Source: the human T2T-CHM13v2.0 reference genome, Homo sapiens
Reading direction: 5' to 3' (one strand)
NCBI RefSeq assembly: GCF_009914755.1
Contig: NC_060935.1
DNA: 64,000 bases
Positions within the stretch are counted from its first letter, which is position 1. Every line of letters starts with the position of its first letter. Made by a program: the position numbers and the translations under genes. Under the pieces are notes generated by a model. The model had not been told where the DNA came from. It did no database searches and saw nothing but the letters and a program-made list of their open reading frames with translations. Below are positions 28,073-64,000 of the stretch, one piece after another.

Positions 28073-29611
28073 TCCCTCCATTTTAGATCAGAAAACTGAG
28101 GCCCAGACCTTAGGAAATCTGAGCAGGCTCTGAGCAGTGGAGGATGTGGGCTCTGAGCCAGTCCCTGCACTCTCCTCTTTTACTCAGGCCCCTCCGCTCC
28201 CCAAGTCCCCTGCCTCCCAGAGGTCCACAAGCCCAAGCTGGGGGAAATCTCAGTGCAGCCTCTTGGATCTCTGTGCAAAAATGAAAAAAAAAAAAAAAAA
28301 AAAAAAAAAGACACGTTTGTGCATAAAATACACACTGTAGAGGAAGGAAAAATGCAGGAAGAGAAGTTTCCAGTAATTCACCCCATGGCAACCACCAGGC
28401 CAGCGTGGGACCTGGAGTATTAATCCTCTAAACCTGGGGCCCCTCCCGCTCGGAGGGCTGAGGGCTGCAGGCCTCTGGGGCCTCCCCGCCTCCAGTTCCG
28501 CTGCCTTGTTCTCACTCCCAGGCAGCCTCCGTCCCAGCCTCCCATCCCGGCTGAGCATGGTACCCCGCACACACGGTTGCTAAGAAACCGTTGCCAAGAG
28601 TCACAACTCAGCTGGCAACGGAAAACACCCCCAGCAGCACCGTTTGCTGGGCCCATTTAGGAAGACATGTTTTCTGGTCCACTCAATGCCTCATCCTCTT
28701 TGCAAACATTTCAAACGTTTTCTTTTACATGGCTTCTAGATATCACTTAGCATGCACTCTATATTTAGGAACGGTTATGAAACAAACATATCACCCACAA
28801 TATCTGCACTGACTATGGCATGAAGCCTGGTACTGGGATCAAGAGGCAGGGAGACACCAGGGAAAAATCCTGCCTCATATCACAGCGAAGCCTGGTGCTC
28901 CTGGCTGATTTGGGAGCTTGTCGGTAAGTCTCATCTGGTCAAGTTCGACAACCCCCAGGTGGCAAGCTTTACGCCACAAAGCCCATTGGACTGCAGGAAA
29001 CAGGAAAGATGGACAGCTCTAGTCCTCGGCCAGAGGCAGAGCTCGTCAGTCAGTCTCATCTGGTCTAATCCCACAACCGCCGAGTGGCAAGCTTTATGCC
29101 ACAGAGCCCACTGGACTGCAAGAAACAGGAGAGACCGATGGCTCCAGCCCTGGACCAGAGGCTACTATCCCTGTAGTACCTCTGAAAGGCCAATCCTTGT
29201 AGCAGCCCTGAAAGGTCCAGATGCAGCCCCTTATTCTGCAGAGGAGGAGTCCAAGGTGGCCACCCACAGGAGGCAGAGCTGGCCTCTGTTGCTGTAGTGG
29301 AGAAATACTGCACCCCAAGCCACATCATGACACTCTTCAGCCCAGAGTGGGCAGCCTGAAGAGGAAAGACTCCATCCCAGCAAGGATGAAGGCTGCGGTT
29401 CCCAGGTCCTCCGTCAGCACGTATCTCATTTCCTGGGCACCCAAGACAGGGACCCCGGGAGGCCCTTTGGTTGGCTTTGGCGCAGCCGTGAAGGTCAGAT
29501 GGGAGCCTGGAGGTGGGGGGCGTGGGGGTGGCATGGTGTTGGGGGACTTTGTCCCTGAAGTGTCTCCTCTCACAGCTCGCTCTAGCACTAAAGGTTCCTG
29601 TTTTTGAGGTT

Positions 29612-29997
29612 TGTGATATTAGAGTTGTTCCCCAAAATTCCGATTTTCCTCCTTCTTGGGCACACACAGGGCTGCAGGTCTCCACCCTCCTGAAGTTAGG
29701 TGCGGCCAAGTGAGCCGGCGGCTGCAGGGACGTGTGTCACTCCAGGAAAGATGAAGACCAACTCACCACCCACCACACTGCCCTTGAACCCAGATGTGGC
29801 AACTATAAATGGATGATGGTCCAGCTGGTGGGGGCGTCACCCAACCCGGTTCCTAAGTGAGGAGGGCAAAGGACAGCACCCAGCAGACCTGACAGGGCAG
29901 TGAGAGTGAGCAGGAAATAAGCCTTTGTTTTTTTAAGCCATGGCAACCTGGAGATTATTTGCTACTGCAGCCTAACCCCGCTGTCCTGACTGTTACA
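29612..29997 (+). mobile_element. Old MLT1 LTR
   Basis: gagcaggaaataagcctttgtttttttaagcca...ggagattatttgctactgcagcctaacc..tcctgactg. Confidence 0.65.
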
Positions 29998-30009
29998 GGT
30001 CAGGTGGCT

Positions 30010-30371
30010 ACAGCAGAATAGCCCTTATCCTAAACGCTTGGACTAGAAGTATTCTGGATTGCATATATTTTTGGATTTTGGAATATTTGCATGTACATTT
30101 GGTATATCTGCACATATAATCACATATATCCTGGAGATGGGACCCAAGTCTAAATATGAAATTCACGTATGCCTTATACACATAGCCTGAAGGTAATTTT
30201 ATACAACATTTAAAGAATTTTGTGCATGAAACAGTTTTCATTGTGTTTTGACTGGGACTTACCCCATGAGGTCAGGCTTGGAATTTTATACCTGTGGCAT
30301 CATGTTGATGCTCAAAAAGTTTGGGGTTTTAGAGCATTTTGGATTTTGGATTTTTAGATGAGCTCAACCTG
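30010..30371. mobile_element. Tigger4/MER46-type DNA transposon
   Basis: cccttatcctaaacgcttggactagaagt...ttttggattttggaatatttgca...gctcaacctg terminus. Confidence 0.75.
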
Positions 30372-30431
30372 GATTGGACCTCAAAGGGTGCCCTTATACA
30401 AGGTCAACATGCCTAGCAAGGAAGAGAGTTG

Positions 30432-30702
30432 TTTTTTGTTTTTTTTTGAAACAGAGTCTCGCTCTGTCGCCCAGGCTGGAGTGCAATGGTGTGAGCTTGG
30501 CTCACTGAAATAGCGGCCTTCCAGCTTCAAGCGATTCTCCTGCCTCAGCCTCCTGAGTAGCTGGGATTACAGGCGCATGCCACCATGCCCAGCTAATTTT
30601 TGTATTTTTAGTAGAGACGGGGTTTCACCATGTTGGCCAGGCTGGTCTCGAACTCCTGACCTCAGGTGATCCACCCGCTTCAGCCTCCCACCATGCCTGG
30701 CT
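30432..30702 (-). mobile_element. AluS with a small deletion near its 5' end
   Basis: Alu reverse sequence; TSD gagagtt. Confidence 0.9.
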
Positions 30703-32927
30703 GAGAGTTCTTAAAACTGAAGATCTCCCAGGTAAGCCCATCTTTGTGTGGCAGGATCCACAGGTTAGGCTGGGAGGGTCCGGGAGCAGAACGTGGAAGC
30801 CAAATTCTGACGGGCGCAGCAGGGGTGGAGGCTGATGGCACCAAAGTCGGGGGCGGAGAGGGCAGTAAACACATGTGCCCCCCTCTGTCCTACCCAGGCC
30901 TCGGTTTCCCTGCTCGCAAAGTAAGCATAGTCACTACTAAGCAGTGCCTTAATATATCAAGAGCTCTTTTCCCCGGGGCCTCCTTCAGTCCTTATAGTAG
31001 CTCTGAAATGTCCTGCAACAGCTCCCTATTTTGCAGAGGAGGAGCCTAAGGCGGCCCACCCATGGGAGGCAGAGCTGGCCTCGACGCCAGCCCCATGCTC
31101 ACTCCACACCCAGCATCATGATGCTGCTGTCATCCCCCAACTTCCGGCTTCCCGAGCTCCAGGCAGTGGAGACCCACCATACAGCAGGCTGTTAGCACCG
31201 CCTCTGGGTGGTGAGGGGCTGCCGAAGTTTCGGCCCACCTGCCCTCCCCAGGACAGGCTCAAACTGAGTGTCTAGGAAGAGTCTCTTGACTAGGGGAGTG
31301 AACAGGTCCCAGAGGATCACAGTACTGCTGTGGGCTCTGGCTGGGTAAATCATCCCAGCTCTGGGGCTCTGGGCTGCAGCGCGGCAAGGCAGTGTGTTCT
31401 GCACAAAGACAGGATGTACTTGGGGAGAGGCTGTACCATTGTTGTGAGCGGAAGAGAAATTAATTTTAAGCCTGGAGTTGATTCCAGCCTGGGAGGGAAA
31501 CGCCAACACTTGGAGAGGGATGGTTTCAGGCATGTGCGCGCCACAGCTCACGTGCTCACTGCAGCCTGAATTCAGTGGGGAAACGCGCCCCGGGCACCCT
31601 CCCTCCTCTGTCAGTGTTCCAAGCCACCCCCACATCCCAGCACCGGAAGAGCCTGGCCCCTCCTTCCATCTAGAGAGCCTTGGGTGTGTTCTCCGCTGAG
31701 CCACACCCTGTCCCCTGCCCCACCAACTAAAACACACCACCCAGGCTGCTGCCGAAAAGGCTGGGAGAGGGGCAGCGAGCCAGACTGAAACCGCCTCTTT
31801 CGAACTCTCGGAAGGGTTTGGTCAGTTCTCTGTCATTTAACCTAGTGCTTGGTGATGAGGACACAGAATAGAGTGTGGCTCCGCTGCTGGCCTCCCGGGT
31901 CTCCAGGCCTGATGGAGTGGGACACACGGACGTCCAGCAGGTTCCGGCCTGGCGGGAGAGGGAGGTCTGGATCACAGGCTGCGGGCCACCGTGACCCTGG
32001 GGGCCGCATGTGGTGGGAAGGGCAGCGGGATGAGCTGGCAAACACTGGGGACTCCAGCTCCCCTAAGGGCCTCCGAACTGCTGCCACAGCCGCTACTGCT
32101 AGGTGCACTCTGACATCAGCTCCAAGCCGGGGAGAGGGGGTGCTGCCGTCAGGAAGGTGCCACCTGGGCCAGAGGCACGGGACACCAGGGAGCACCTGCT
32201 GCAGAGCTGGATGATCCTGGTGCCCTCTAATGCCCTGACTCCAATAAGCCTATCTCTGGGCCTCAGTTTCCCCAAGTGTGCAATGAAGGGCCTGGCCATC
32301 CAGACCCCCAGCAGATCCGGCCCCCTGACATCCATTCTAGTCCCCTTCCTCACTATGAGGACCCTAATATTGTCTTGGCAGTTAACAGACCCAGCTACAA
32401 AACCCCTTTTCTCAGTTTCCCCTGGCTGCTAGGAGTGACCAGGAGACCCCAGGGTGCTTATCAATGAGACAGGAGAGGACATCGTCTGTGGGCTTCCAGA
32501 GAGGGGCAGACAGCATGCACACTGCTTTTGCTCCTGGCCCTGGTCCGGGAGATGCACTACCGTGGGCTTTGGCCCCCACTCAGCTTGCCCTATGCTAGAA
32601 GGTTCCCTGATGGCAGTGGGGTGAGGTGGGCTGCAGAGCCCACGCTTAGAGCAAGAGAAAGGTCAGCCATCCTGCTGGGCTGGCACTGACCTTGCAGGTG
32701 CCCTGAGGCCAGACGGCAGGCAGCAGCGATGCCCCAGGTCCCAGGCCCCAGAAGGCTGGTCAGCCCCCAGGACAGGAACCAGGCCACGGCTGAGGACTGT
32801 GAGGGTGGCAGACAGAAGGACAATCAGACCCAGGCTGCCCAGGCAGAGGCGGGGCCAGGAAGAGATCTGCGGACAAAGTGGCATCTCTAGGCCTCTGGAA
32901 ATTGTGTGTGATTTCAAGCAAAGAGAC

Positions 32928-33352
32928 GGTAGTGGTTGAATTTTGTCCCCCTAAAATCCACGTCTATGTAGAACCTCAGAGTGTGACCTTCTTTGGAAGT
33001 AAGGTTGCTGGAGATGCAATCACTTGGGATGAGGTCATCCTGGAATAAGTGGGCCCTAAGTCCACTGGTTGGTGCCCTTATAAGGAGGGAAAATACAGAC
33101 ACACAGAGACATGGCCACGTGCAGATGGAAGCAGAGACTGGGGGATGTGGCCACAAGCCAAAGAACACCTGGACGCCCCAGAAGCTGAAAGAGACAAGGA
33201 AGGGTCCTCCCCTAGAGCACTGGAGGGAGAGGGCCCTGCCGACACCTTGACATTGGTCTCTGCCTCCAGAACTGTGAGGGGAGACACTTCTGTTGTTCAA
33301 GCCCCAGCTGGTGGCTTTGAACCCTTTGTGAGAGCAGCCCCAGGACACCAGC
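32928..33352 (+). mobile_element. MLT1B/C (MaLR) LTR
   Basis: gtagtggttgaattttgtcccc...gtgtgaccttctttggaagtaagg...ggccctgccgacaccttga...tccagaactgtgag. Confidence 0.85.
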
Positions 33353-33843
33353 ACAAAGGGTGAGCATGTAGGAGGCCAGTGTGGTGACCTGCGCATCCTG
33401 TGGTCCCTCCCTCCGGCGCCCAACGCATCCTCAGGACTAGCCGGGGCCTGGGGACCGGACAGGGAGCAACTGGCAGCAGAGGGTGATGACAGAGCCTGCA
33501 TTCCGGAATCTGACCCACAAAGGGCTGTGGCATTCATAGGAGAAGCCACGGAAGACCGGCAGGAATGACAGAAGCAGCAGCGAGAGCCCTTCAGAGGACC
33601 GCGAAACGCGAACTCCCACCCCAGCAAACCACCAAGGGGAAGAGGCGGGCCCCCATCCAGGAGGCCTTAGGAACAGGAGAGCTGACTTTTCTAAAGCAAA
33701 TAAGGTCCAGGTTGCCTAAAACAGGGGAGGGTAGCCTAAGGCTCTCCCAGACTCATGACAACTTAGAATTGTACAAGTGGCACATTTAGCTAGAATCTGG
33801 GAGGAGCCTGCTGGGGGCCGTGCCATTCTGAGGGTTCCCGGAG

Positions 33844-33845
<2 letters not shown>

Positions 33846-33884
<39 letters not shown>
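33846..33884. repeat. (CA)n microsatellite, ~19 units
   Basis: Direct reading. Confidence 0.97.
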
Positions 33885-33887
<3 letters not shown>

Positions 33888-34557
33888 CCACACAACCTCC
33901 CTCCCACCTGCCTTCTCCAAATAAAACCATGTCCCTGGTCCTTTTCTCTTGGTATCCACCTTCTCCATCATGGAGGAGGTCTCAGCTCCTAATCCACTCG
34001 GCAAAGTCCCAGCGGACAGTGAGTCACTGAGTGCTGGGCCAGGCACAAGCTGAGCTCAGGGCCTCCAAGGCAAGGTGACCCAGAGGGCGCTGGGAATAGG
34101 ACAGCGTAGGTGCCCCCGCAGTGGGGGATGTGGCTGGGTGTCTGTGAGGATGCTTCCTGCATGACAAGCTGGGGTTATAAGAACACAAAAGCCTGTAGGA
34201 TGAAGCCTGGCCCAAAGCAGTCGGGGTCCCCTGACCTCCCCGGCCTCTCTCCAGGCAGTGTTCTCCCCAGGGCGCCAGGCTTCCCCAGCTCCAAGTCTGG
34301 GCGTCTGAAATCTGCTGTGTAATTGGATCACGCCCGGCCCGTGCTGAGCGCCCATCTGCGCCCGTCTTGGAAAACACAAGTCTCAGAGAAGGAAAGCAGT
34401 TGCCACAGGTAATTTTCTATCAAATATATTACATTTCTTGGAATCACACGCAGAAATTAACTAATTAGATTCCCCCTTATTTTTGAAATGCTTTCAGAGG
34501 ACAATGGAAAGGTTCACTCTGTTCTGGGAAACGCTTCATTTAGACGCTAAACATTAG

Positions 34558-34865
<308 letters not shown>

Positions 34866-35594
34866 TGGCGGACTTTTAAGGATGCTATCCACGCTCCCTG
34901 CTCCTGGTTCCATCACGGGCCCCGAACAGCCGCAGGTGTGTGAAGGCAGGCTGGGAAACACTTCTGAGTCAGACCCACCTCTCTGGTTCAACCAGAGGCT
35001 CCTTTCTCTCCTTGATAACAATCCAAATTGTGATTGTTTTATAGAACCGCCTTTTACAACAGAATCATCTCCCCACATACCATTTTCCCTGATGCTGCCT
35101 GACAATCCTTGTCTCCCAGGGATGTGGGCACACAGCCACATGCTGCTCTACCTCCCACCCGCCCTGAGCACTCGGTGGATGCTGGGACTCTGCCGGCCAG
35201 CCAACCAGAAAAGGGCGCATGAGGGTACATCCGGGCTGCAGAAGAACATACTAATTGGTTTATTTTTTGAAACAAGGTCATGTTGATCTGGAAGGTAACT
35301 CGGGGGAAGAGTAGACAGGACCAGAGGGAGGACAGAGGACAAGGACATCATTCAGCAAGATGAGGGCCTGGGAAGCTGGGTCTCTGAGAAGCCTGGGCCC
35401 CTTTAATCCCAGTGAGCCCCTTGCATGGAGCGTTGATGGATACGGGGCAGGGGGACAAGGACAGGCGCAGGTGCTCATTGAGGAGAGAGGTCCTGGGATC
35501 CCCAGACCTGGGCATGAGGGGGCTGCCACTGGGCACAGATGGGCAACCTGGGCACCATGCAGAATAGTGTCTGCAGCTGATTTAGACACGTTGA

Positions 35595-35765
35595 ATATAT
35601 AAATACGTTATATATATTATGTATGTTATATATAACATATTTATACATATATTCATATACGTAACATAAATGTTATATTTTTATATATGTATTACATAAA
35701 AATATATTGTATATAATATATATTCTATATAAAACATGTATAAGTATATTTATATATATATAAAT
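35595..35765. repeat. AT-rich low-complexity tract
   Basis: Direct reading. Confidence 0.85.
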
Positions 35766-36799
35766 AACACTGAGTTGAATATACAAAAATCCTGAGTTCA
35801 TAATGACATACTGGTGAGGAAGAGAGAGACAGACCAGGGCAGAGAAGACACAGGGAGAGAGAAAAAGACCCTACTTCATCCCTCAACAACATGATAGAAA
35901 ACCAACTCACTGGACATCAGTAGAGATCACTGAAGCATCAGCTTCCTATAGAGAGACTTGACAATGAAAAAGAAAGAATTAAGCATTTATCTTGCCTTCT
36001 TGTACAAACAGTGTTCAGCTTAACCAAGTCATCTTATTTGATATGTGAAAGTTCTTCGAGATGGAAGAATCTCAGCTCATCACTGCGAAGGCATGCCAGG
36101 ATTAGGAAGTCATCAGATGCAAGCCTGCAAGCCTCAGTGTACTCCTCAATGTCTGCAGGGCCCACCCCAGAGAGAGGCCCCTGGGTGACCAGCCGGTGAG
36201 GAGCTTCAAGAGGAAGGATTCACCATCACCACCTGGATCCTGTGTGCAGCTTTTGTCACAGCGGTGGCGAGCACAGTTTCTGCCTCCTGGGGAGATGGGG
36301 TGTGAAGCTCACAGCACCTGCGTGTGGCTGGGCCCAACATTAACAGCGCTGCAAGAGCTCACCTCCATTTATAGGAAGTGGGAAGGACCCAAGGACTGGC
36401 CGATGACACCACAGGAGGCAGAAGGCACATCGGGGGTTGGGGGTAGCCTATGGCCAACCTACCCTGTCCCTCTAACAACCTACCCTGTCCCTATAACACG
36501 TTGCTGGCAGGAAACACGGGAGATGGCTCAGACTGGAGACCTGGGGACATATCTACCAAGTGCCACGTGGGTCCTGGGTCAAAGTCACCACCGTGAAAAG
36601 ACATTTCTGAGATAATTTGGGACATGTGCTAATGGAGGGGTTTCAGATTCCACCCAGAGACCACTGCTGGGTGCGTGGATGGGACAGTGACACTGGGGCC
36701 CGCAAGAAAGATCCCATGCTGTGAGAGACAGACTGAAGGGGAAGAGGGAGTGACGCGATGCCTGGGATTTGCTGAAGAAAAAAAAAAGAATAAAAAGGT

Positions 36800-38245
<1,446 letters not shown>

Positions 38246-50790: not shown

Positions 50791-52887
50791 GTATAAACAC
50801 ATGACAAAATGTATTACTAACAGACACATATAAAGAAGTAAAATTCCACAAAGATAAGCCTTGTTATGCGGACACTGTCTCCTGGTGGCAGCATCCCTGG
50901 TTTTTTCTTTGGCTTCTCTGCATTACCAATTTTATTTGTGTCTGACATGATTTACTCGAAACACAGTGAAATAATGCTAATGTAAAAGCTGGCTATCAGG
51001 CAGATATGGGGGTAAAGTTTACTCAAAATTTCCTAGGACCAGGGGTACAATTCCCCCTGTAAACCCCTCAGGATTCCAGTGGGCCTGGGGAGAGAAGGCT
51101 GGCACCTTCCAGGGAAGGGCTGGCTTCTCACGCTCTCTCTGATGTAAATGAATCCACCCCTCCACCTCCATCAGCTTTTCAAGTTCAGGCCCTGATGGAG
51201 AGGGGGAAGGGGTTTGGGAGGAAGGAGACCCTTGTCCAAGACGGAAGTTCTATCCTGGCTGTGCTCTCCTCAGTGGTGCCTTCCTTTCCTTAAGGAATAT
51301 TTATTGGTGGCCTGCCATGTGCTCGGCTCTGGGTGGTCCCTTATCTGATGGGGCATGTGCAGGAAGTGACTATGGCAGAGGGTTATGAGCGGGCATCACA
51401 GGCAACTTTCAGGGAGCAGATGCAGGAGGTGCCCTGGTAAAGCAGGTGGAGGAGGCAAAACTGTGGGCAAGTGTCTGGGGACAGGAGGGGTGTGGCACAT
51501 TCCGGAGACCAGAGAGAGTGTCCAATGGCGACGTTCATCTCCTCACTGGCCTGGCACACGTGCCATCTCCCCTTCTCACCCATATAACCCACTCCTCCAT
51601 CTGCAACCCCAGCCCTGAGGGTGCTGAAGGAGGTGCACATGCCCAGGACCGTCCCTGTCTATCTCCATGACCCCCTAGGTCCTGCCATGGAGACTGAACA
51701 CAAAGGAGATGCATGGGAAAGTCTGCTCCATGGGACCCATCTGAAGATCCTGGGGAGAGGGAAGTAGAGAACTTGCTGGTGGGTGGTTGATTTCATGAGA
51801 CCACAGCGGGGCTACCATTCTCAGGGCTCCACAGCATCAGCTCTAACTCCCCTTCTCATCCCACTCTGCTTACTGTTGGCGCACACACACCCTAATTCCC
51901 AGGGCTGACAAACTCCATCAATTAAAAGATCCTGTGGGGCACTTAGCACAGGGCCTTCCTCCAGTTCATTTGCCAGTCTAACCACTTGTATCATGAAACT
52001 CCCCACGAAAGGGCACCAAAGGCGAAGAGAAATCAGTACTAACAAGAGCCTGCTGAGAACACTGGGAGGTGGGCAGTGGGTGTATGGGAGGGAGGAGGGG
52101 GGCAGGTGGAGAGGACCCAGAGGCACCAATGGGTGCATCAGAGGACCTGGCGCCAGCAGCTTCCAACATGGAGATGTCAGCCCACTATGCCTCCTGCAGC
52201 CTTCGCTCCATGTAGCCTGGGGCTGGGTGTACAGCATCCACACACAGAAAAAGATGGCTGTTAAGATTACATCCCAATGATCTGGGACTTACCTGGAGCA
52301 TCAGACAGACACAGTGCAAAAGAAACAAGCTTTGGAGTCAGCTTAGATTCAGACCTCCCTGGAGGGCCCTGGGCAGGCTTCTTAATCTCTCTGAACTGTG
52401 CTGCATGCTGGAGATGTAGCAGAGACCTGGTCAGCAAACTCTCTGACCCACAGGGAATGTTCCCTGAGGGAGGTGGATAGTAAGTCAGTCACCTAACACG
52501 GGAGATGTATGATTCCTATGGTCATGGAAGCACACGGTGTGAGTGTGAGAGTCAGGGCAACCTGAGGGTGCCAAGAGGGGCCTCTCTGAGAAGGCATCAT
52601 GTGAGCTGAAACCTCAGTGGTGAGGGGAGTGGGGCTCAAAGCAGATGCAGATGGACATGGCAGGACATAGCAGATGCTCAACCATGTTGGCTCCTTGGCC
52701 CCTCCTTGTGGAAGAGATTTCTCCATCGAGTAGATGAGACTGTCACTAAGTAATGAGCCTCTATGCCCAGAAACTCCAAGGACACAGGGGACAGAAATGA
52801 AAGGTGCAGGGATGGAGGGAGGGGACATGCTGAGGGCTTTCTCCAGACTCCTGAGGAAGGCTGCATCCAATCCTCCCAGCTGTCTAG

Positions 52888-52980
52888 TTCAGCACCCTGC
52901 AGAGAGCCAGTGCCCTGGAGTGGTTCAGCACCCTGGAGAGAGACCATGCCACACAAGGGTTCAGCACCCTGGAGAGATCC
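52888..52980 (+). promoter_or_regulatory. Tandem cluster of three RE1/NRSE (REST-binding) motifs at a 36-bp period
   Basis: TTCAGCACCCTGCAGAG (52888), TTCAGCACCCTGGAGAG (52924), TTCAGCACCCTGGAGAG (52960). The last two match the RE1 consensus NTYAGMRCCNNRGMSAG perfectly; the first has one mismatch. Confidence 0.75.
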
Positions 52981-53964
52981 AGCAATGCTCTTGCTCTGTG
53001 CAGCTGTACAGCCACACACATTTGTACCTACTTCACTAACAACCCAGGCCCCCACTAGACCAGCCGGTCATGCCCAGCTTCATAGCATCTGATCACTCCC
53101 CAAATCCACCTTGAACATTCCTGACCCCCTAAGCTTTTGCTCAAGACCTTCCTCCTCAGTTCTGCCTGCAAAAACCTCACTTACCCATCAAAGCCTGGAG
53201 CCAACACCATCTTTCATGAAGCCCTTTTCCTGATTTACTTTGGGGCCTTCACCACACTCTGCTTTTTGCCTACCCCTTCTAGACTGTGTGTTCCTCAAGG
53301 AACTGTGTCTGATTCACGTCTTTCTTCCAGCCCAGTACCTGGGAGGCAGAATGTATGCTTCAGAAATGAATGAGTGAAGCTTCAGAAGTAATTTTTACAA
53401 TTGCCACCATTTGTTGAGAACTCATGATGCCAGAAACTGCTACATGCTTCACACACACTTTTATTTACAGTTCAAGAAACTGAGGCCAAGAAATGAGCAA
53501 CCTGCCCAAGTTCACACAGTTAGGAAGAGGCAGAGCCTGGATTCAAACCTGGATCATATGGCACAGCCTGTGCCCTTGACCGCGGCTCCTCTCTGCCTCT
53601 CTCCAACCCTGTGTGCTGCCATCTGCCAGTCCCATGGCATCTGAGCACAGCAGCCATGGTCCCCTGAAGTGATTCTGAATCTTTTTATAGCCTGAAATTG
53701 AAATCACTGATGCTTCAAATTAGAACCCCAAAATGAACGAGCCAAGACTTCAGATTTGCAGTTGCCGAGCTGCCCGCATCCACCTTCTCAGCAAGATTCC
53801 TGGGCCACTCCTCAGCCCGAACCACCTGTTCCCAGTCAATATGGAGGACAAAGAGAACGACCTCCCCAGGCCCAGAAGGCCACATGCAGAAAAGGGATCC
53901 AACCTCCCCGCCATCCAGGGCTCCCCACAGAGCAGTGGCCTCTGTCTGGGAGAAGAAAGACCAC

Positions 53965-62236: not shown

Positions 62237-62361
62237 CTCAATCAAGAAGTCCCCGGTCCTTAGTCCGGCTTGCCACGCCACCCCACCTTCATCCACGGAC
62301 TCCAGGTACTGTAGGGCTGGGAAAGCCGGTGTTGGTGTGAATTCTTCAATGGGTGTGTCAG
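62237..62361 (-). CDS. SHANK2: SHANK2 internal coding exon (125 bp), PDZ domain: (A)DTPIEEFTPTPAFPALQYLESVDEGGVAWQAGLRTGDFLIE
   Basis: Peptide is the SHANK-family PDZ segment, with SHANK2-type residues (ADTPIEEF, VAWQAGLR). Acceptor ttgtcttcccAG|CT (AG at 62363-62362), donor GAG|GTAGGG (GT at 62236-62235). Phase 1 in, phase 0 out: 2+41x3=125 nt. Confidence 0.97.
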
Positions 62362-63972
62362 CTGGGAAGACAAGCAGCACCTGGTTACAAGCCTGGGAGA
62401 TGTCTTCCAAGTTCACATTGCCTGACCTCCCCACAGGACCCCGGGAGGAAGTGGGCCCACTCATCTCCCATTGCAGGTGGCTAGTCCAGGCCAACTCTCC
62501 CCCAGGAAGTGCTTGAGATTCATACTCATGGGCTGATGCAACTCAAGCAATGAAGTCAATTGCACCTTGGGGCCGCCATCATATTTCTTGGCCTCTCTGC
62601 TGAAACCACAGGATAATGTGCTCTGTGGTACATGTCTACACGCCTGTCATTTTCTTTAAAAGCATCAGTGACTAAACATTTTCGGTTCTAAAAATGGAAA
62701 AGTTCCTCCCCTGCCACACAGAGCTACAGAAACACCACACTAAACCACTTGCCAAATTTACATCTACGTAGACTCGCAACCAAGGGAATTCAACTTGGAA
62801 CGCGGACGGAACATCACGCTGACCCAGTGGGTGGCTACAGATTTGGAATGTGCTCATGAGTCCTCTCTACAGGGAGTCCAGGCCTCTGTGACCACTCTGT
62901 GTGTGACCAGTGTCCCTGGGCACTGGCATGTGTGTGTGTGGGTGCTGAACCACTACTGCCCAGCACAGTGAGGCTTGGCTTCTGGGGCCCCACACAGCTG
63001 CCAGGTGCAACTCCAGGGCAGGAGATGGACTTTTCTAGGGAGGCATGAGTGGCCAAGGGTGGGTGGGTGTGGAGATAAAGATTCCAGCAGGGGGAGGGGA
63101 GAGCAAATCACACAGACAGGCGTGGATGCTCTCACAGAGACAGATGCATCTGCTCTTTCTCTCTCTGGACAGCTCGCTATGGAGCTGCCTGAGTCTGAGG
63201 CAGGTGGGCATGCCAGCTGGGGAGGAGGCCTCCTGCAGCACAGGTGCGGGACCCCTGGCACAGCGCGTAAGCTCCAAGATGAAACTTCCACATGGCTGAG
63301 CCACACACACAGTGGGCGGATGTCCCCTCTCATGGGGAGGTGATGCCATTTTGTTTTCTTTTGGAGGGGAAGCTGCGCGTGCAGGGTGACTGGCAGGTGC
63401 ACCGCCATGGACTGCATTCCTGAGCCTCCCACGACGGGCCACGTAACGTGTGTGCTGCCGGCTCAGTCCACGGCAGAGGGGACCATCTTGTCACATTTCC
63501 TTTGCAAAGTCACCTTAGAGGTGAGCACACAAATGCCTGCCGCCCTTGGAGCCAAAGCCCACTCCCAGAATGGGGCAGTTTCTAGGTGCCTGAAACTCAG
63601 GCCAGGGCAATCCTGGGGATTTGAGACCCAGAGCTCTGAGGGTAGCCACAGTCTGGCTCAACTAGAACACAAAATACTGACCACCCCATCATTTAAAAAC
63701 AAAAGGTAGGAGGGGCAGGAGGGAGAGAGAACCCATTCAGAACAACATCATCTACAGAAAATTAAAAACATTCCTCAAGGAAGCCCTAACGTTTTCTGAG
63801 TAAGGCACAATGTGAAGGAACATGGTTGTCTAGCAACTGAGTGCCCCCAGGAAAAATGCTTATTTAATGCTTATTCCTGAGCTGGGGAACGTTTTTCATG
63901 CAGGCGTATACACACACACACACACACACACAAACATGGGAACATATTCAGGCTCAGAGCGGCTGCTCTTAC
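62362..63972 (-). other. SHANK2: SHANK2 intron (1611 bp) between the two PDZ exons
   Basis: GT-AG boundaries with matching phase; candidate branch point tgtAAc near 62385. Confidence 0.93.
63910..63932. repeat. (CA)n microsatellite, ~11 units, ~40 nt into the intron after the 63973 donor
   Basis: Direct reading. Confidence 0.95.
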
Positions 63973-64000
63973 CTTTGGCCCCTCGAAGCACGAATCCAAA
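63973..64000 (-). CDS. SHANK2: SHANK2 coding exon, 3' part only (FGFVLRGAK + first base of Ala codon); continues beyond the window
   Basis: Minus strand TTT GGA TTC GTG CTT CGA GGG GCC AAA G|GTAAGA = PDZ carboxylate-binding loop (G)FGF. The trailing G joins CT of the next exon to give GCT (Ala), in frame. Confidence 0.95.

What the first reader, a model, noticed from the sequence alone, without database searches (positions are those of the whole stretch)
52888..52980. Phased triple REST/NRSF (RE1) silencer array inside the long SHANK2 intron
Seen: GTTCAGCACCCTG(G/C)AGAGA occurs three times at an exact 36-bp period (motif starts 52888, 52924, 52960) with diverged spacers. The first spacer (ccagtgccctggagtg) looks like a decayed fourth copy, suggesting origin from an 18-bp tandem unit. 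Established: the canonical RE1 is TTCAGCACC-nn-GGA(C/G)AG (NTYAGMRCCNNRGMSAG); copies 2 and 3 match perfectly and copy 1 has one mismatch. REST represses neuronal and synaptic genes. With 8 fixed and 6 two-fold positions, a single match is expected only ~0.03 times in 128 kb of both strands. Inference: the motifs are conserved while the spacers have diverged, which suggests selection on a multivalent REST landing pad ~9 kb from the PDZ exons. It may control SHANK2 (possibly its short PDZ-starting isoform promoter) in non-neuronal cells or progenitors.
Basis: partly seen in the sequence, partly recalled or inferred. Interest (0 to 1): 0.8.

Follow-up and report, generated by a model that had tools for sequence, protein, structure and literature searches.

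The report
Known REST-bound triple RE1 array, SHANK2
Three head-to-tail binding sites for the neuronal-gene repressor REST sit in a small tandem repeat inside a SHANK2 intron; the site is real, but published REST binding maps and reporter screens already record it.

Summary
Window 52887-52982 is a 36-bp tandem repeat (2.7 copies). It carries three RE1/NRSE motifs with TTCAGC starting at 52888, 52924 and 52960. Copies 2 and 3 match the 17-bp consensus exactly; copy 1 has one mismatch.

The REST reading is supported by published tables:
- An hESC REST ChIP-seq peak at hg19 chr11:70496423-70496774 (window 52767-53118) covers the array. It scores 9160, is assigned to SHANK2 and is classed 'conserved' with mouse ESCs.
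- A genome-wide RE1 reporter screen synthesised three 200-bp oligos whose starts lie 36 bp apart, one centred on each copy. Its FIMO scores are 19.4, 25.3 and 26.9, against a silencing threshold of 20.86.
- RefSeq annotates a 295-bp silencer over the array (hub table).
- The only mouse Shank2 REST peak overlaps a REST-bound sperm DMR reported in aged mice.

Head-to-tail tandem RE1 clusters born by tandem duplication were described in 2006.

Still inferred: selection on the motifs, any function of the 36-bp spacing, and control of the PDZ-starting SHANK2 isoform, whose first exon lies 11.3 kb upstream.

Verdict: a real REST site, already known. The only small open point is when the copy number arose.

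The parts
52887..52982 (+). 36-bp tandem repeat, 2.7 copies, carrying the three RE1 motifs; no CpG
   Evidence: TRF; sequence; 0 CpG in 96 bp
52888..52908 (+). RE1 copy 1, TTCAGCACCCTGCAGAGAGCC: intact left half-site, G to C in the right half-site; published FIMO MA0138.2 score 19.38, below the 20.86 threshold
   Evidence: threshold
52905..52922 (+). Decayed 18-bp unit in spacer 1 (12 of 18 identical to the RE1 18-mer of copies 2 and 3); holds SNPs 52911 T>C (MAF >5%) and 52913 C>T (<1%)
   Evidence: TRF period-18 row; sequence; SNPs
52924..52944 (+). RE1 copy 2, TTCAGCACCCTGGAGAGAGAC: exact consensus match; FIMO 25.27
52960..52980 (+). RE1 copy 3, TTCAGCACCCTGGAGAGATCC: exact consensus match; FIMO 26.95
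52773..53067 (.). RefSeq functional element 'silencer', 295 bp, centred at 52920 inside the array
   Evidence: Hub annotation. The length equals that of Sharpr-MPRA test regions, and RefSeq Functional Elements draws on that data set. The link is inferred
52767..53118 (.). Published hESC REST ChIP-seq peak (hg19 chr11:70496423-70496774), score 9160, 'conserved' with mouse ESC
   Evidence: coordinate mapping
62237..62361 (-). SHANK2 PDZ-domain exon, 9,255 bp from the array
   Evidence: hub annotation
63973..64000 (-). 3' part of the exon whose alternative long form (to window 64218, outside the window) is the first coding exon of the PDZ-starting isoform (MMMNVPGGG...GFGFVLRGAK)
   Evidence: Hub annotation

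Best explanation
This is a genuine REST/NRSF-bound RE1 cluster: three head-to-tail 21-bp RE1 motifs created by tandem duplication of a 36-bp unit, itself perhaps built from an older 18-bp unit.

Shown:
- The motifs and the repeat are in the sequence.
- REST occupies the spot in human ES cells and in at least one ENCODE line.
- A REST peak is called at the syntenic place in mouse ES cells.
- RefSeq annotates the stretch as a silencer.

Inferred:
- Two strong sites (copies 2 and 3) and one sub-threshold site (copy 1) each bind one REST molecule. The sites do not overlap, with 15 bp between the 21-mers.
- Several sites raise occupancy and make each one redundant.
- The bound REST recruits its co-repressors and keeps the brain-restricted SHANK2 transcripts silent in non-neuronal cells and progenitors. 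The nearest such transcript is the PDZ-starting ProSAP1 isoform, whose first exon lies 11.3 kb upstream.
- The exact 36-bp period is a by-product of duplication, not a functional phase. 36 bp is 3.43 helical turns, so neighbouring sites face about 154 degrees apart.

I put REST binding at about 0.95, silencer activity at about 0.8, and SHANK2 short isoforms as the target at about 0.5.
For: Sequence:
- The motif type is strongly over-represented in the genome. TTCAGCACCNNGGASAG occurs 317 times against 1 for the reversed control. The GGAGAG form used here occurs 64 times. The copy-1 form GCAGAG occurs only 13 times.

Binding:
- The hESC peak scores 9160 and is 'conserved'. Only 15.3% of human REST peaks are conserved in mouse ESCs.
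- The site is in the PMC9903721 library, whose rule is a canonical motif under an ENCODE REST peak. One oligo centres on each copy. Oligo 3 is identical to window 52870-53069.

Strength:
- FIMO scores are 19.38, 25.27 and 26.95 against the paper's silencing threshold of 20.86.

Silencer:
- RefSeq feature (hub). REST motifs are among the most repressive in Sharpr-MPRA.

Mouse counterpart:
- The only Shank2 REST peak in the mouse ESC table is mm10 chr7:144294381-144294559.
- It overlaps sperm hypo-DMR M2_Hypo_046 (144294420-144294559, 'Shank2/intron1'). This DMR lies 10,036 bp from the start of a short refGene model and is described as REST-bound.

Target plausibility:
- Shank2 protein is repressed in high-REST PC12 cells.
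- The PDZ- and SH3-starting isoforms are brain-restricted in rat fetus, while SHANK2E is expressed in liver.

Redundancy:
- Scrambling any single motif gave no significant change in GM12878.
Against: - In the only reporter rows I could read (GM12878; the files are cut), no single-motif scramble was significant. The largest effect was copy 2 with enhancer En21: +0.93 log2, Skew_logFDR 0.99, that is FDR about 0.1. This fits redundancy, but it fits weak activity equally well.
- The main result table of that screen (Table S6) was too large to read. I do not know whether the native oligos scored as silencers.
- Copy 1 lies below the published strength threshold.
- The source of the RefSeq silencer is inferred from its 295-bp length. 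The source paper is not held.
- No data seen here link the element to SHANK2 expression in human cells.
- SHANK2E is transcribed through this intron in liver, so the site does not silence the whole gene.
- Pairing the human peak with the mouse peak rests on each table having exactly one 'conserved' SHANK2 row, not on an alignment I saw.
Confidence: 0.8

Rival explanations
1. REST binds here, but the array has little regulatory effect on SHANK2. It is a high-affinity landing site produced by a neutral tandem duplication, and REST occupancy is tolerated rather than used.
For: Single-motif scrambles were not significant in GM12878. Only 31% of canonical-motif REST sites repressed strongly in the screen. 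The array looks like an ordinary small minisatellite. No experiment seen here ties it to SHANK2 expression.
Against: Both strong copies exceed the strength threshold above which motifs silence. REST binding is conserved with mouse ESCs. RefSeq annotates a silencer (hub). Shank2 responds to REST levels in rodent models.
Confidence: 0.13
2. The REST-bound array acts on something other than the nearby short-isoform promoter: another SHANK2 promoter, SHANK2-AS1 (15 kb away), or a distal gene through looping.
For: The target was not tested. The element is intronic and more than 11 kb from the nearest annotated start. SHANK2-AS1 lies at 29035-37968 (hub).
Against: The mouse counterpart also lies about 10 kb downstream of the start of a short Shank2 model. 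The position relative to that start is therefore kept. The hub lists no other gene within 100 kb.
Confidence: 0.06
3. A chance minisatellite that merely resembles RE1 and is not bound by REST.
For: The three copies are not independent events. Copy 1 is degenerate.
Against: Published REST ChIP-seq peaks cover the array. Copies 2 and 3 have FIMO p-values of 2.7e-9 and 7.3e-10.
Confidence: 0.01

Closest known systems
Tandem (head-to-tail) RE1 clusters described in PMC1557810 (2006), for example SNAP25 and L1CAM
   Same: Two or more RE1s lie within 100 bp, all in the same orientation, in groups of up to five. That paper attributes the arrangement to tandem duplication. It suggests the clusters recruit REST at low concentration or recruit several complexes at once. 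The array here is three copies, head to tail, inside a TRF-detected repeat.
   Different: I could not read that paper's list of tandem RE1s. I cannot say whether SHANK2 is on it. Here the duplication unit is still visible as a 36-bp repeat with an older 18-bp sub-period.
Another tandem-repeat RE1 array in the same genome, chr11:66,418,142-66,418,233 (-) (locus L005)
   Same: A 38-bp period with 2.8 copies and 85% matches. Each unit carries a consensus RE1 in head-to-tail order. The architecture is the same.
   Different: It uses the TTCAGAACC...GGACAG form and is CpG-rich. Two further RE1-like motifs follow it, giving five within about 170 bp. I did not identify its gene.
Canonical single RE1/NRSE silencers (21-bp motif; 17-bp consensus NTYAGMRCCNNRGMSAG)
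   Same: Left and right half-sites separated by 2 bp. Copies 2 and 3 match fully. REST is bound and the stretch is annotated as a silencer.
   Different: There are three copies instead of one. All use GGAGAG rather than the commoner GGACAG in the right half-site (64 of 317 genome-wide sites). From recall only, not from any call: the prototype SCG10 NRSE also uses GGAGAG.
Transposon-borne RE1 families (PMC1557810; PMC4499139)
   Same: RE1 sites multiplied by sequence duplication.
   Different: The 295-bp stretch has no other copy in the genome (1 of 1 match is itself). It is not among the masked repeats listed by the hub. The duplication is local, not transposon-mediated.

Membership tests
RE1/NRSE (REST-binding silencer element) | Match to the RE1 consensus: two half-sites with a 2-bp spacer | tested here: met
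   Copies 2 and 3 are exact matches to TYAGMRCCNNRGMSAG. Copy 1 has 1 mismatch. Published FIMO MA0138.2 scores are 19.38, 25.27 and 26.95. The consensus was confirmed in PMC4430910.
RE1/NRSE (REST-binding silencer element) | REST occupancy in cells (ChIP) | tested here: met
   Looked up in published tables, not computed. An hESC peak covers the array with score 9160. Inclusion in the PMC9903721 library requires an ENCODE REST peak in at least 1 of 4 lines. I did not see which line.
RE1/NRSE (REST-binding silencer element) | Motif-dependent repression of a reporter | tested here: inconclusive
   RefSeq calls the 295-bp stretch a silencer (hub). Single-motif scrambles in GM12878 were not significant. 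Rows for K562, HepG2 and SK-N-SH, and Table S6, could not be read.
RE1/NRSE (REST-binding silencer element) | REST-dependent repression of the endogenous target gene through this element | not testable with these tools
   Only indirect evidence: Shank2 is lower in high-REST PC12 cells and is listed among genes activated on REST inhibition in mouse.
Tandem RE1 cluster (PMC1557810) | Two or more RE1s within 100 bp, head to tail | tested here: met
   Three motifs on the + strand with starts 36 bp apart.
Tandem RE1 cluster (PMC1557810) | Origin by local tandem duplication | tested here: met
   TRF finds period 36, 2.7 copies and 82% matches. The first half of the spacers still aligns.
Transposon-derived RE1 | Flanks belong to a dispersed repeat family | tested here: not met
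   The 295-bp query finds only itself in the 3.1-Gb assembly. The tool skips very common words, so an old, highly diverged element is not excluded.

The most novel reading that the evidence does not exclude
The human array may be a lineage-specific expansion of a single ancestral RE1 that is already REST-bound in mouse. Local tandem duplication (18 bp, then 36 bp, then 2.7 copies) would have turned one site into a redundant, very high-occupancy REST pad in an autism-risk gene.

Copy number, or the common T>C variant at 52911, might then tune how tightly the brain-restricted SHANK2 isoforms are silenced. That variant creates a CpG and moves the decayed fourth unit closer to the RE1 consensus.

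The lead is thin. [quoted passage not shown]
Probability: 0.3. Interest if true: 0.45.

Novelty: already known. Interest (0 to 1): 0.22.

Why it matters
SHANK2 is a well-established autism gene, and REST is the main repressor of neuronal genes outside neurons. A strong, conserved REST site next to the start of its brain-restricted isoforms is a sensible candidate for how that restriction is set.

The site is already in RefSeq, in REST ChIP-seq tables and in a genome-wide RE1 reporter screen. Its mouse counterpart has been studied as an age-sensitive sperm DMR. The value of this check is therefore confirmation.

What remains open is modest: when the three copies arose, whether copy number varies among people, and which SHANK2 promoter responds.

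Tried and rejected
- Transposon origin: rejected. The 295-bp stretch matches only itself in the genome. The exact 19-mer occurs at one other place, chr11:72605198 (-), with unrelated GC-rich flanks. That is an independent single RE1.
- Relaxed motif scan (up to 2 mismatches): uninformative, 28 found against 19.1 expected.
- The Sharpr-MPRA source paper (PMC5125825, doi 10.1038/nbt.3678) is not held. The origin of the RefSeq silencer therefore stays inferred. A search for 'RefSeq Functional Elements' + 'Sharpr-MPRA' + 'silencer' found 0 papers.
- Searching Table S8 of PMC9903721 for the 21-mer gave nothing, because that table holds names and scores, not sequences.
Numeric prefixes worked.
- The supplement of PMC1557810 (list of human tandem RE1s) cannot be read here.
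- Cross-species alignment was not possible. The assembly 'has no relatives here' and no mammalian genomes are held. Motif-versus-spacer conservation across species and copy number in other species were not tested.
- Functional phasing: considered and not adopted. Among the 7 loci with two consensus RE1s 5-35 bp apart, start-to-start spacings differ, from about 29 to 50 bp. PMC1557810 also reports variable spacing.
- PMC9903721 does not mention SHANK2, 'homotypic' or 'two motifs' in its main text. PMC4499139 has no 'tandem', 'multiple RE1' or 'SHANK' in its main text.

Full report
**1. What is in the sequence**

One search shows GTTCAGCACCCTG(C/G)AGAGA at 52887, 52923 and 52959. TTCAGC therefore starts at 52888, 52924 and 52960, an exact 36-bp period on the + strand.

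Tandem Repeats Finder calls 52887-52982 a period-36 repeat with 2.7 copies, 82% matches and score 125. It also gives a weaker period-18 row for 52887-52940 (63% matches). Read directly, 52905-52922 matches the 18-mer of copies 2 and 3 at 12 of 18 positions.

The 17-bp RE1 consensus NTYAGMRCCNNRGMSAG is quoted in PMC4430910, where it was built from 32 bona fide targets. It has 2 exact matches in the window, both in the array. The expected number is 0.06, and 0 of 100 shuffles give 2. Copy 1 has one mismatch, G to C in the right half-site. Relaxed matches elsewhere in the window are at background level: 28 against 19.1 expected.

The array has no CpG.

**2. Is it a dispersed repeat?**

No. The 295-bp stretch 52773-53067 finds only itself in the 3.1-Gb assembly. 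The exact 19-mer occurs at one other place, chr11:72605198 (-), as a lone RE1 in unrelated GC-rich sequence.

**3. How good are the motifs?**

Genome-wide counts:

| Pattern | Matches | Reversed control |
|---|---|---|
| TTCAGCACCNNGGASAG | 317 | 1 |
| TTCAGCACCNNGGAGAG (form of copies 2 and 3) | 64 | 1 |
| TTCAGCACCNNGCAGAG (form of copy 1) | 13 | 0 |

So copies 2 and 3 belong to a strongly over-represented class, and copy 1 is close to background.

This agrees with the published FIMO scores (MA0138.2) for the three sites: 19.38, 25.27 and 26.95. The same paper found that RE1 motifs contribute to silencing above a score of 20.86.

**4. Published evidence that maps onto the array**

(a) PMC9903721, a genome-wide RE1 reporter screen. 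I read the abstract, sections 10, 11, 40 and 49, and parts of Tables S2, S8, S9 and S14.
[quoted passage not shown] Each motif sits at positions 91-111 of a 200-bp oligo.
- The library holds REST_chr11:70496453-, 70496489- and 70496525- (hg19), with starts 36 bp apart.
- The printed sequence of the third oligo is identical to window 52870-53069.
- With hg19 = window + 70443656, positions 91-111 of the three oligos are exactly the three 21-mers.
- Three reference alleles (52911 T, 52913 C, 52985 A) confirm the mapping.

(b) PMC4499139, REST in human and mouse ES cells. I read passages and rows of Table S2.
- There is an hESC REST peak at chr11:70496423-70496774, which is window 52767-53118. It scores 9160, is assigned to SHANK2 and is classed 'conserved'.
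- 'Conserved' means a peak was also called at the syntenic position in mouse ES cells. Only 15.3% of human peaks are conserved.
- The other three SHANK2 peaks score 61, 85 and 807, and none is conserved.

(c) The hub lists a RefSeq silencer at 52773-53067.
- Its 295-bp length equals that of Sharpr-MPRA test regions, which are centred on DNase peaks. In that assay REST motifs are among the most repressive.
- RefSeq Functional Elements names that data set among its sources.
- The source paper itself is not held, so this link is an inference.

(d) Mouse.
- The one Shank2 row in the mouse ESC table is mm10 chr7:144294381-144294559, 'conserved'.
- It overlaps hypo-DMR M2_Hypo_046 of PMC7857438: 144294420-144294559, 'Shank2/intron1', 10,036 bp from the start of a short refGene model. 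Methylation is 66% in young sperm and 25% in aged sperm.
- That paper describes the DMR as REST-bound, with a REST motif flanked by CpGs.
- That the human and mouse peaks are the syntenic pair is inferred. Each table has one conserved SHANK2 row.

**5. Gene context**

SHANK2 is on the minus strand (hub).
- Exon 62237-62361 translates to DTPIEEFTPTPAFPALQYLESVDEGGVAWQAGLRTGDFLIE. It hits Pfam PDZ_6 at E = 9.4e-6 (25.7 bits against a cut-off of 27; it is a fragment). It lies 9,255 bp from the array.
- The alternative long form of exon 63973-64218 carries an ATG. It reads MMMNVPGGG...VVLQKKDNEGFGFVLRGAK up to the splice donor. This makes it the first coding exon of a PDZ-starting isoform, with its 5' end 11.3 kb upstream of the array in the gene's sense.
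- PMC3276563 (passages) states that SHANK2E, ProSAP1A and ProSAP1 arise from three promoters. In rat fetus the PDZ-starting and SH3-starting isoforms are brain-restricted, while SHANK2E is seen in liver.
- Shank2 protein is repressed in high-REST PC12 cells. Shank2 is also listed among genes activated when REST is inhibited in mouse.

**6. Evidence that cuts the other way, or is missing**

- Table S9 is cut, and I saw only the GM12878 rows. In those, scrambling one motif at a time gave no significant change. With the RE1-responsive enhancers En09, En19 and En21 the log2 skews were:

| Scrambled copy | En09 | En19 | En21 |
|---|---|---|---|
| Copy 1 | +0.37 | +0.37 | -0.24 |
| Copy 2 | +0.55 | +0.80 | +0.93 |
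| Copy 3 | +0.42 | -0.22 | -0.18 |

- The best Skew_logFDR is 0.99. This fits redundancy among three sites. It would also fit weak activity.
- Table S6, with the activity of the native oligos, is too large to read.
- The three variants tested in the array (52911 T>C, MAF >5%; 52913 C>T, <1%; 52985 A>G, >5%) all lie outside the 21-mers and leave the motif scores unchanged. The numbers are too small to argue for constraint.
- The motif-versus-spacer contrast within the repeat is 19/20 against 7/16 identical (Fisher p = 0.0017). It rests on one spacer pair. A gapped alignment shows that the first half of the spacers still aligns.
- No other mammal could be aligned with these tools.

**7. Comparison with what is known**

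PMC1557810 (2006; abstract and passages) already describes this kind of element:
- It found 27 pairs of RE1s within 100 bp, in groups of up to five motifs, all head to tail.
- It proposes that they recruit REST at low concentration or recruit several complexes at once.
- It notes that the spacing varies, and concludes that the arrangement reflects tandem duplication rather than REST-REST contact.

My own scan of the assembly found 8 matches at 7 loci with two consensus RE1s 5-35 bp apart on one strand, against 0 for the control. One of them, chr11:66,418,142-66,418,233, is another tandem-repeat array. It has a 38-bp period, 2.8 copies and 85% matches, and is followed by two more RE1-like motifs.

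The SHANK2 array is therefore a member of a described class. As an individual site it is already in RefSeq, in ChIP-seq tables and in a reporter library.

What I did not find in print is any remark that this particular site is a triple array. SHANK2 is absent from the main text of PMC9903721. SHANK is absent from the main text of PMC4499139. The search 'SHANK2' + 'REST' + 'RE1' returned 41 papers; of the 15 listed, none is about this element by its title or abstract start. The tandem list of PMC1557810 could not be read.

**8. Verdict**

The element is already known.

The most likely mechanism is REST binding at two strong sites and one weak site made by local duplication. This would give high and redundant occupancy that helps keep brain-restricted SHANK2 transcripts off outside neurons. 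Binding is shown. Silencing is annotated, but I did not see its source. The target and any role for the copy number are inferred.

The 36-bp 'phase' is best read as a mark of the duplication.

Noticed in passing
L005 1560-1760 (G000 chr11:66,418,059-66,418,259, minus strand): A second tandem-repeat RE1 array in the genome: 38-bp period, 2.8 copies, 85% matches, three TTCAGAACC..GGACAG motifs. Two more RE1-like motifs follow (GTCAGCACCATGGGCAG and TTCAGCACCGCGGACAG), giving five within about 170 bp of CpG-rich sequence. The gene was not identified.
   Followed up: partly
window 52911: The common variant T>C (MAF >5% in Table S14 of PMC9903721) lies in the decayed 18-bp unit. The C allele would create the array's only CpG. 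It would also turn CAGTGCC into CAGCGCC, which is closer to the RE1 left half-site. The paper scored only the central motif, where the change is 0.
   Followed up: partly
G000 chr20:33,693,186-33,693,237 (+): Another pair of consensus RE1s whose starts are also 36 bp apart. Oligo names chr20:30556266 and chr20:30556302 in Table S8 of PMC9903721 are likewise 36 apart. This is probably coincidence; spacings at the other loci differ.
   Followed up: no
L003 about 1500-1520 (G000 chr11:72,605,198-72,605,216, minus strand): The only other exact copy of the 19-mer GTTCAGCACCCTGGAGAGA in the genome. It is a single RE1 in a GC-rich, CpG-island-like stretch with unrelated flanks.
   Followed up: partly
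window 63909-63935 (minus-strand reading): A (GT)n microsatellite in the intron about 40 bp downstream of the splice donor of exon 63973-64055.
   Followed up: no
L006 500-560 (window about 64400-64460, outside the window): A GCC/GCT-rich trinucleotide-like run just upstream of the alternative first exon of the PDZ-starting isoform. This is consistent with a GC-rich promoter region.
   Followed up: no
window 52834-52889: Table S8 of PMC9903721 lists a weak extra REST-motif hit (FIMO 6.90) present in oligos 1 and 2 but not in oligo 3, so it starts left of 52870. A 4.46 hit is present in all three oligos. Neither was located exactly.
   Followed up: no
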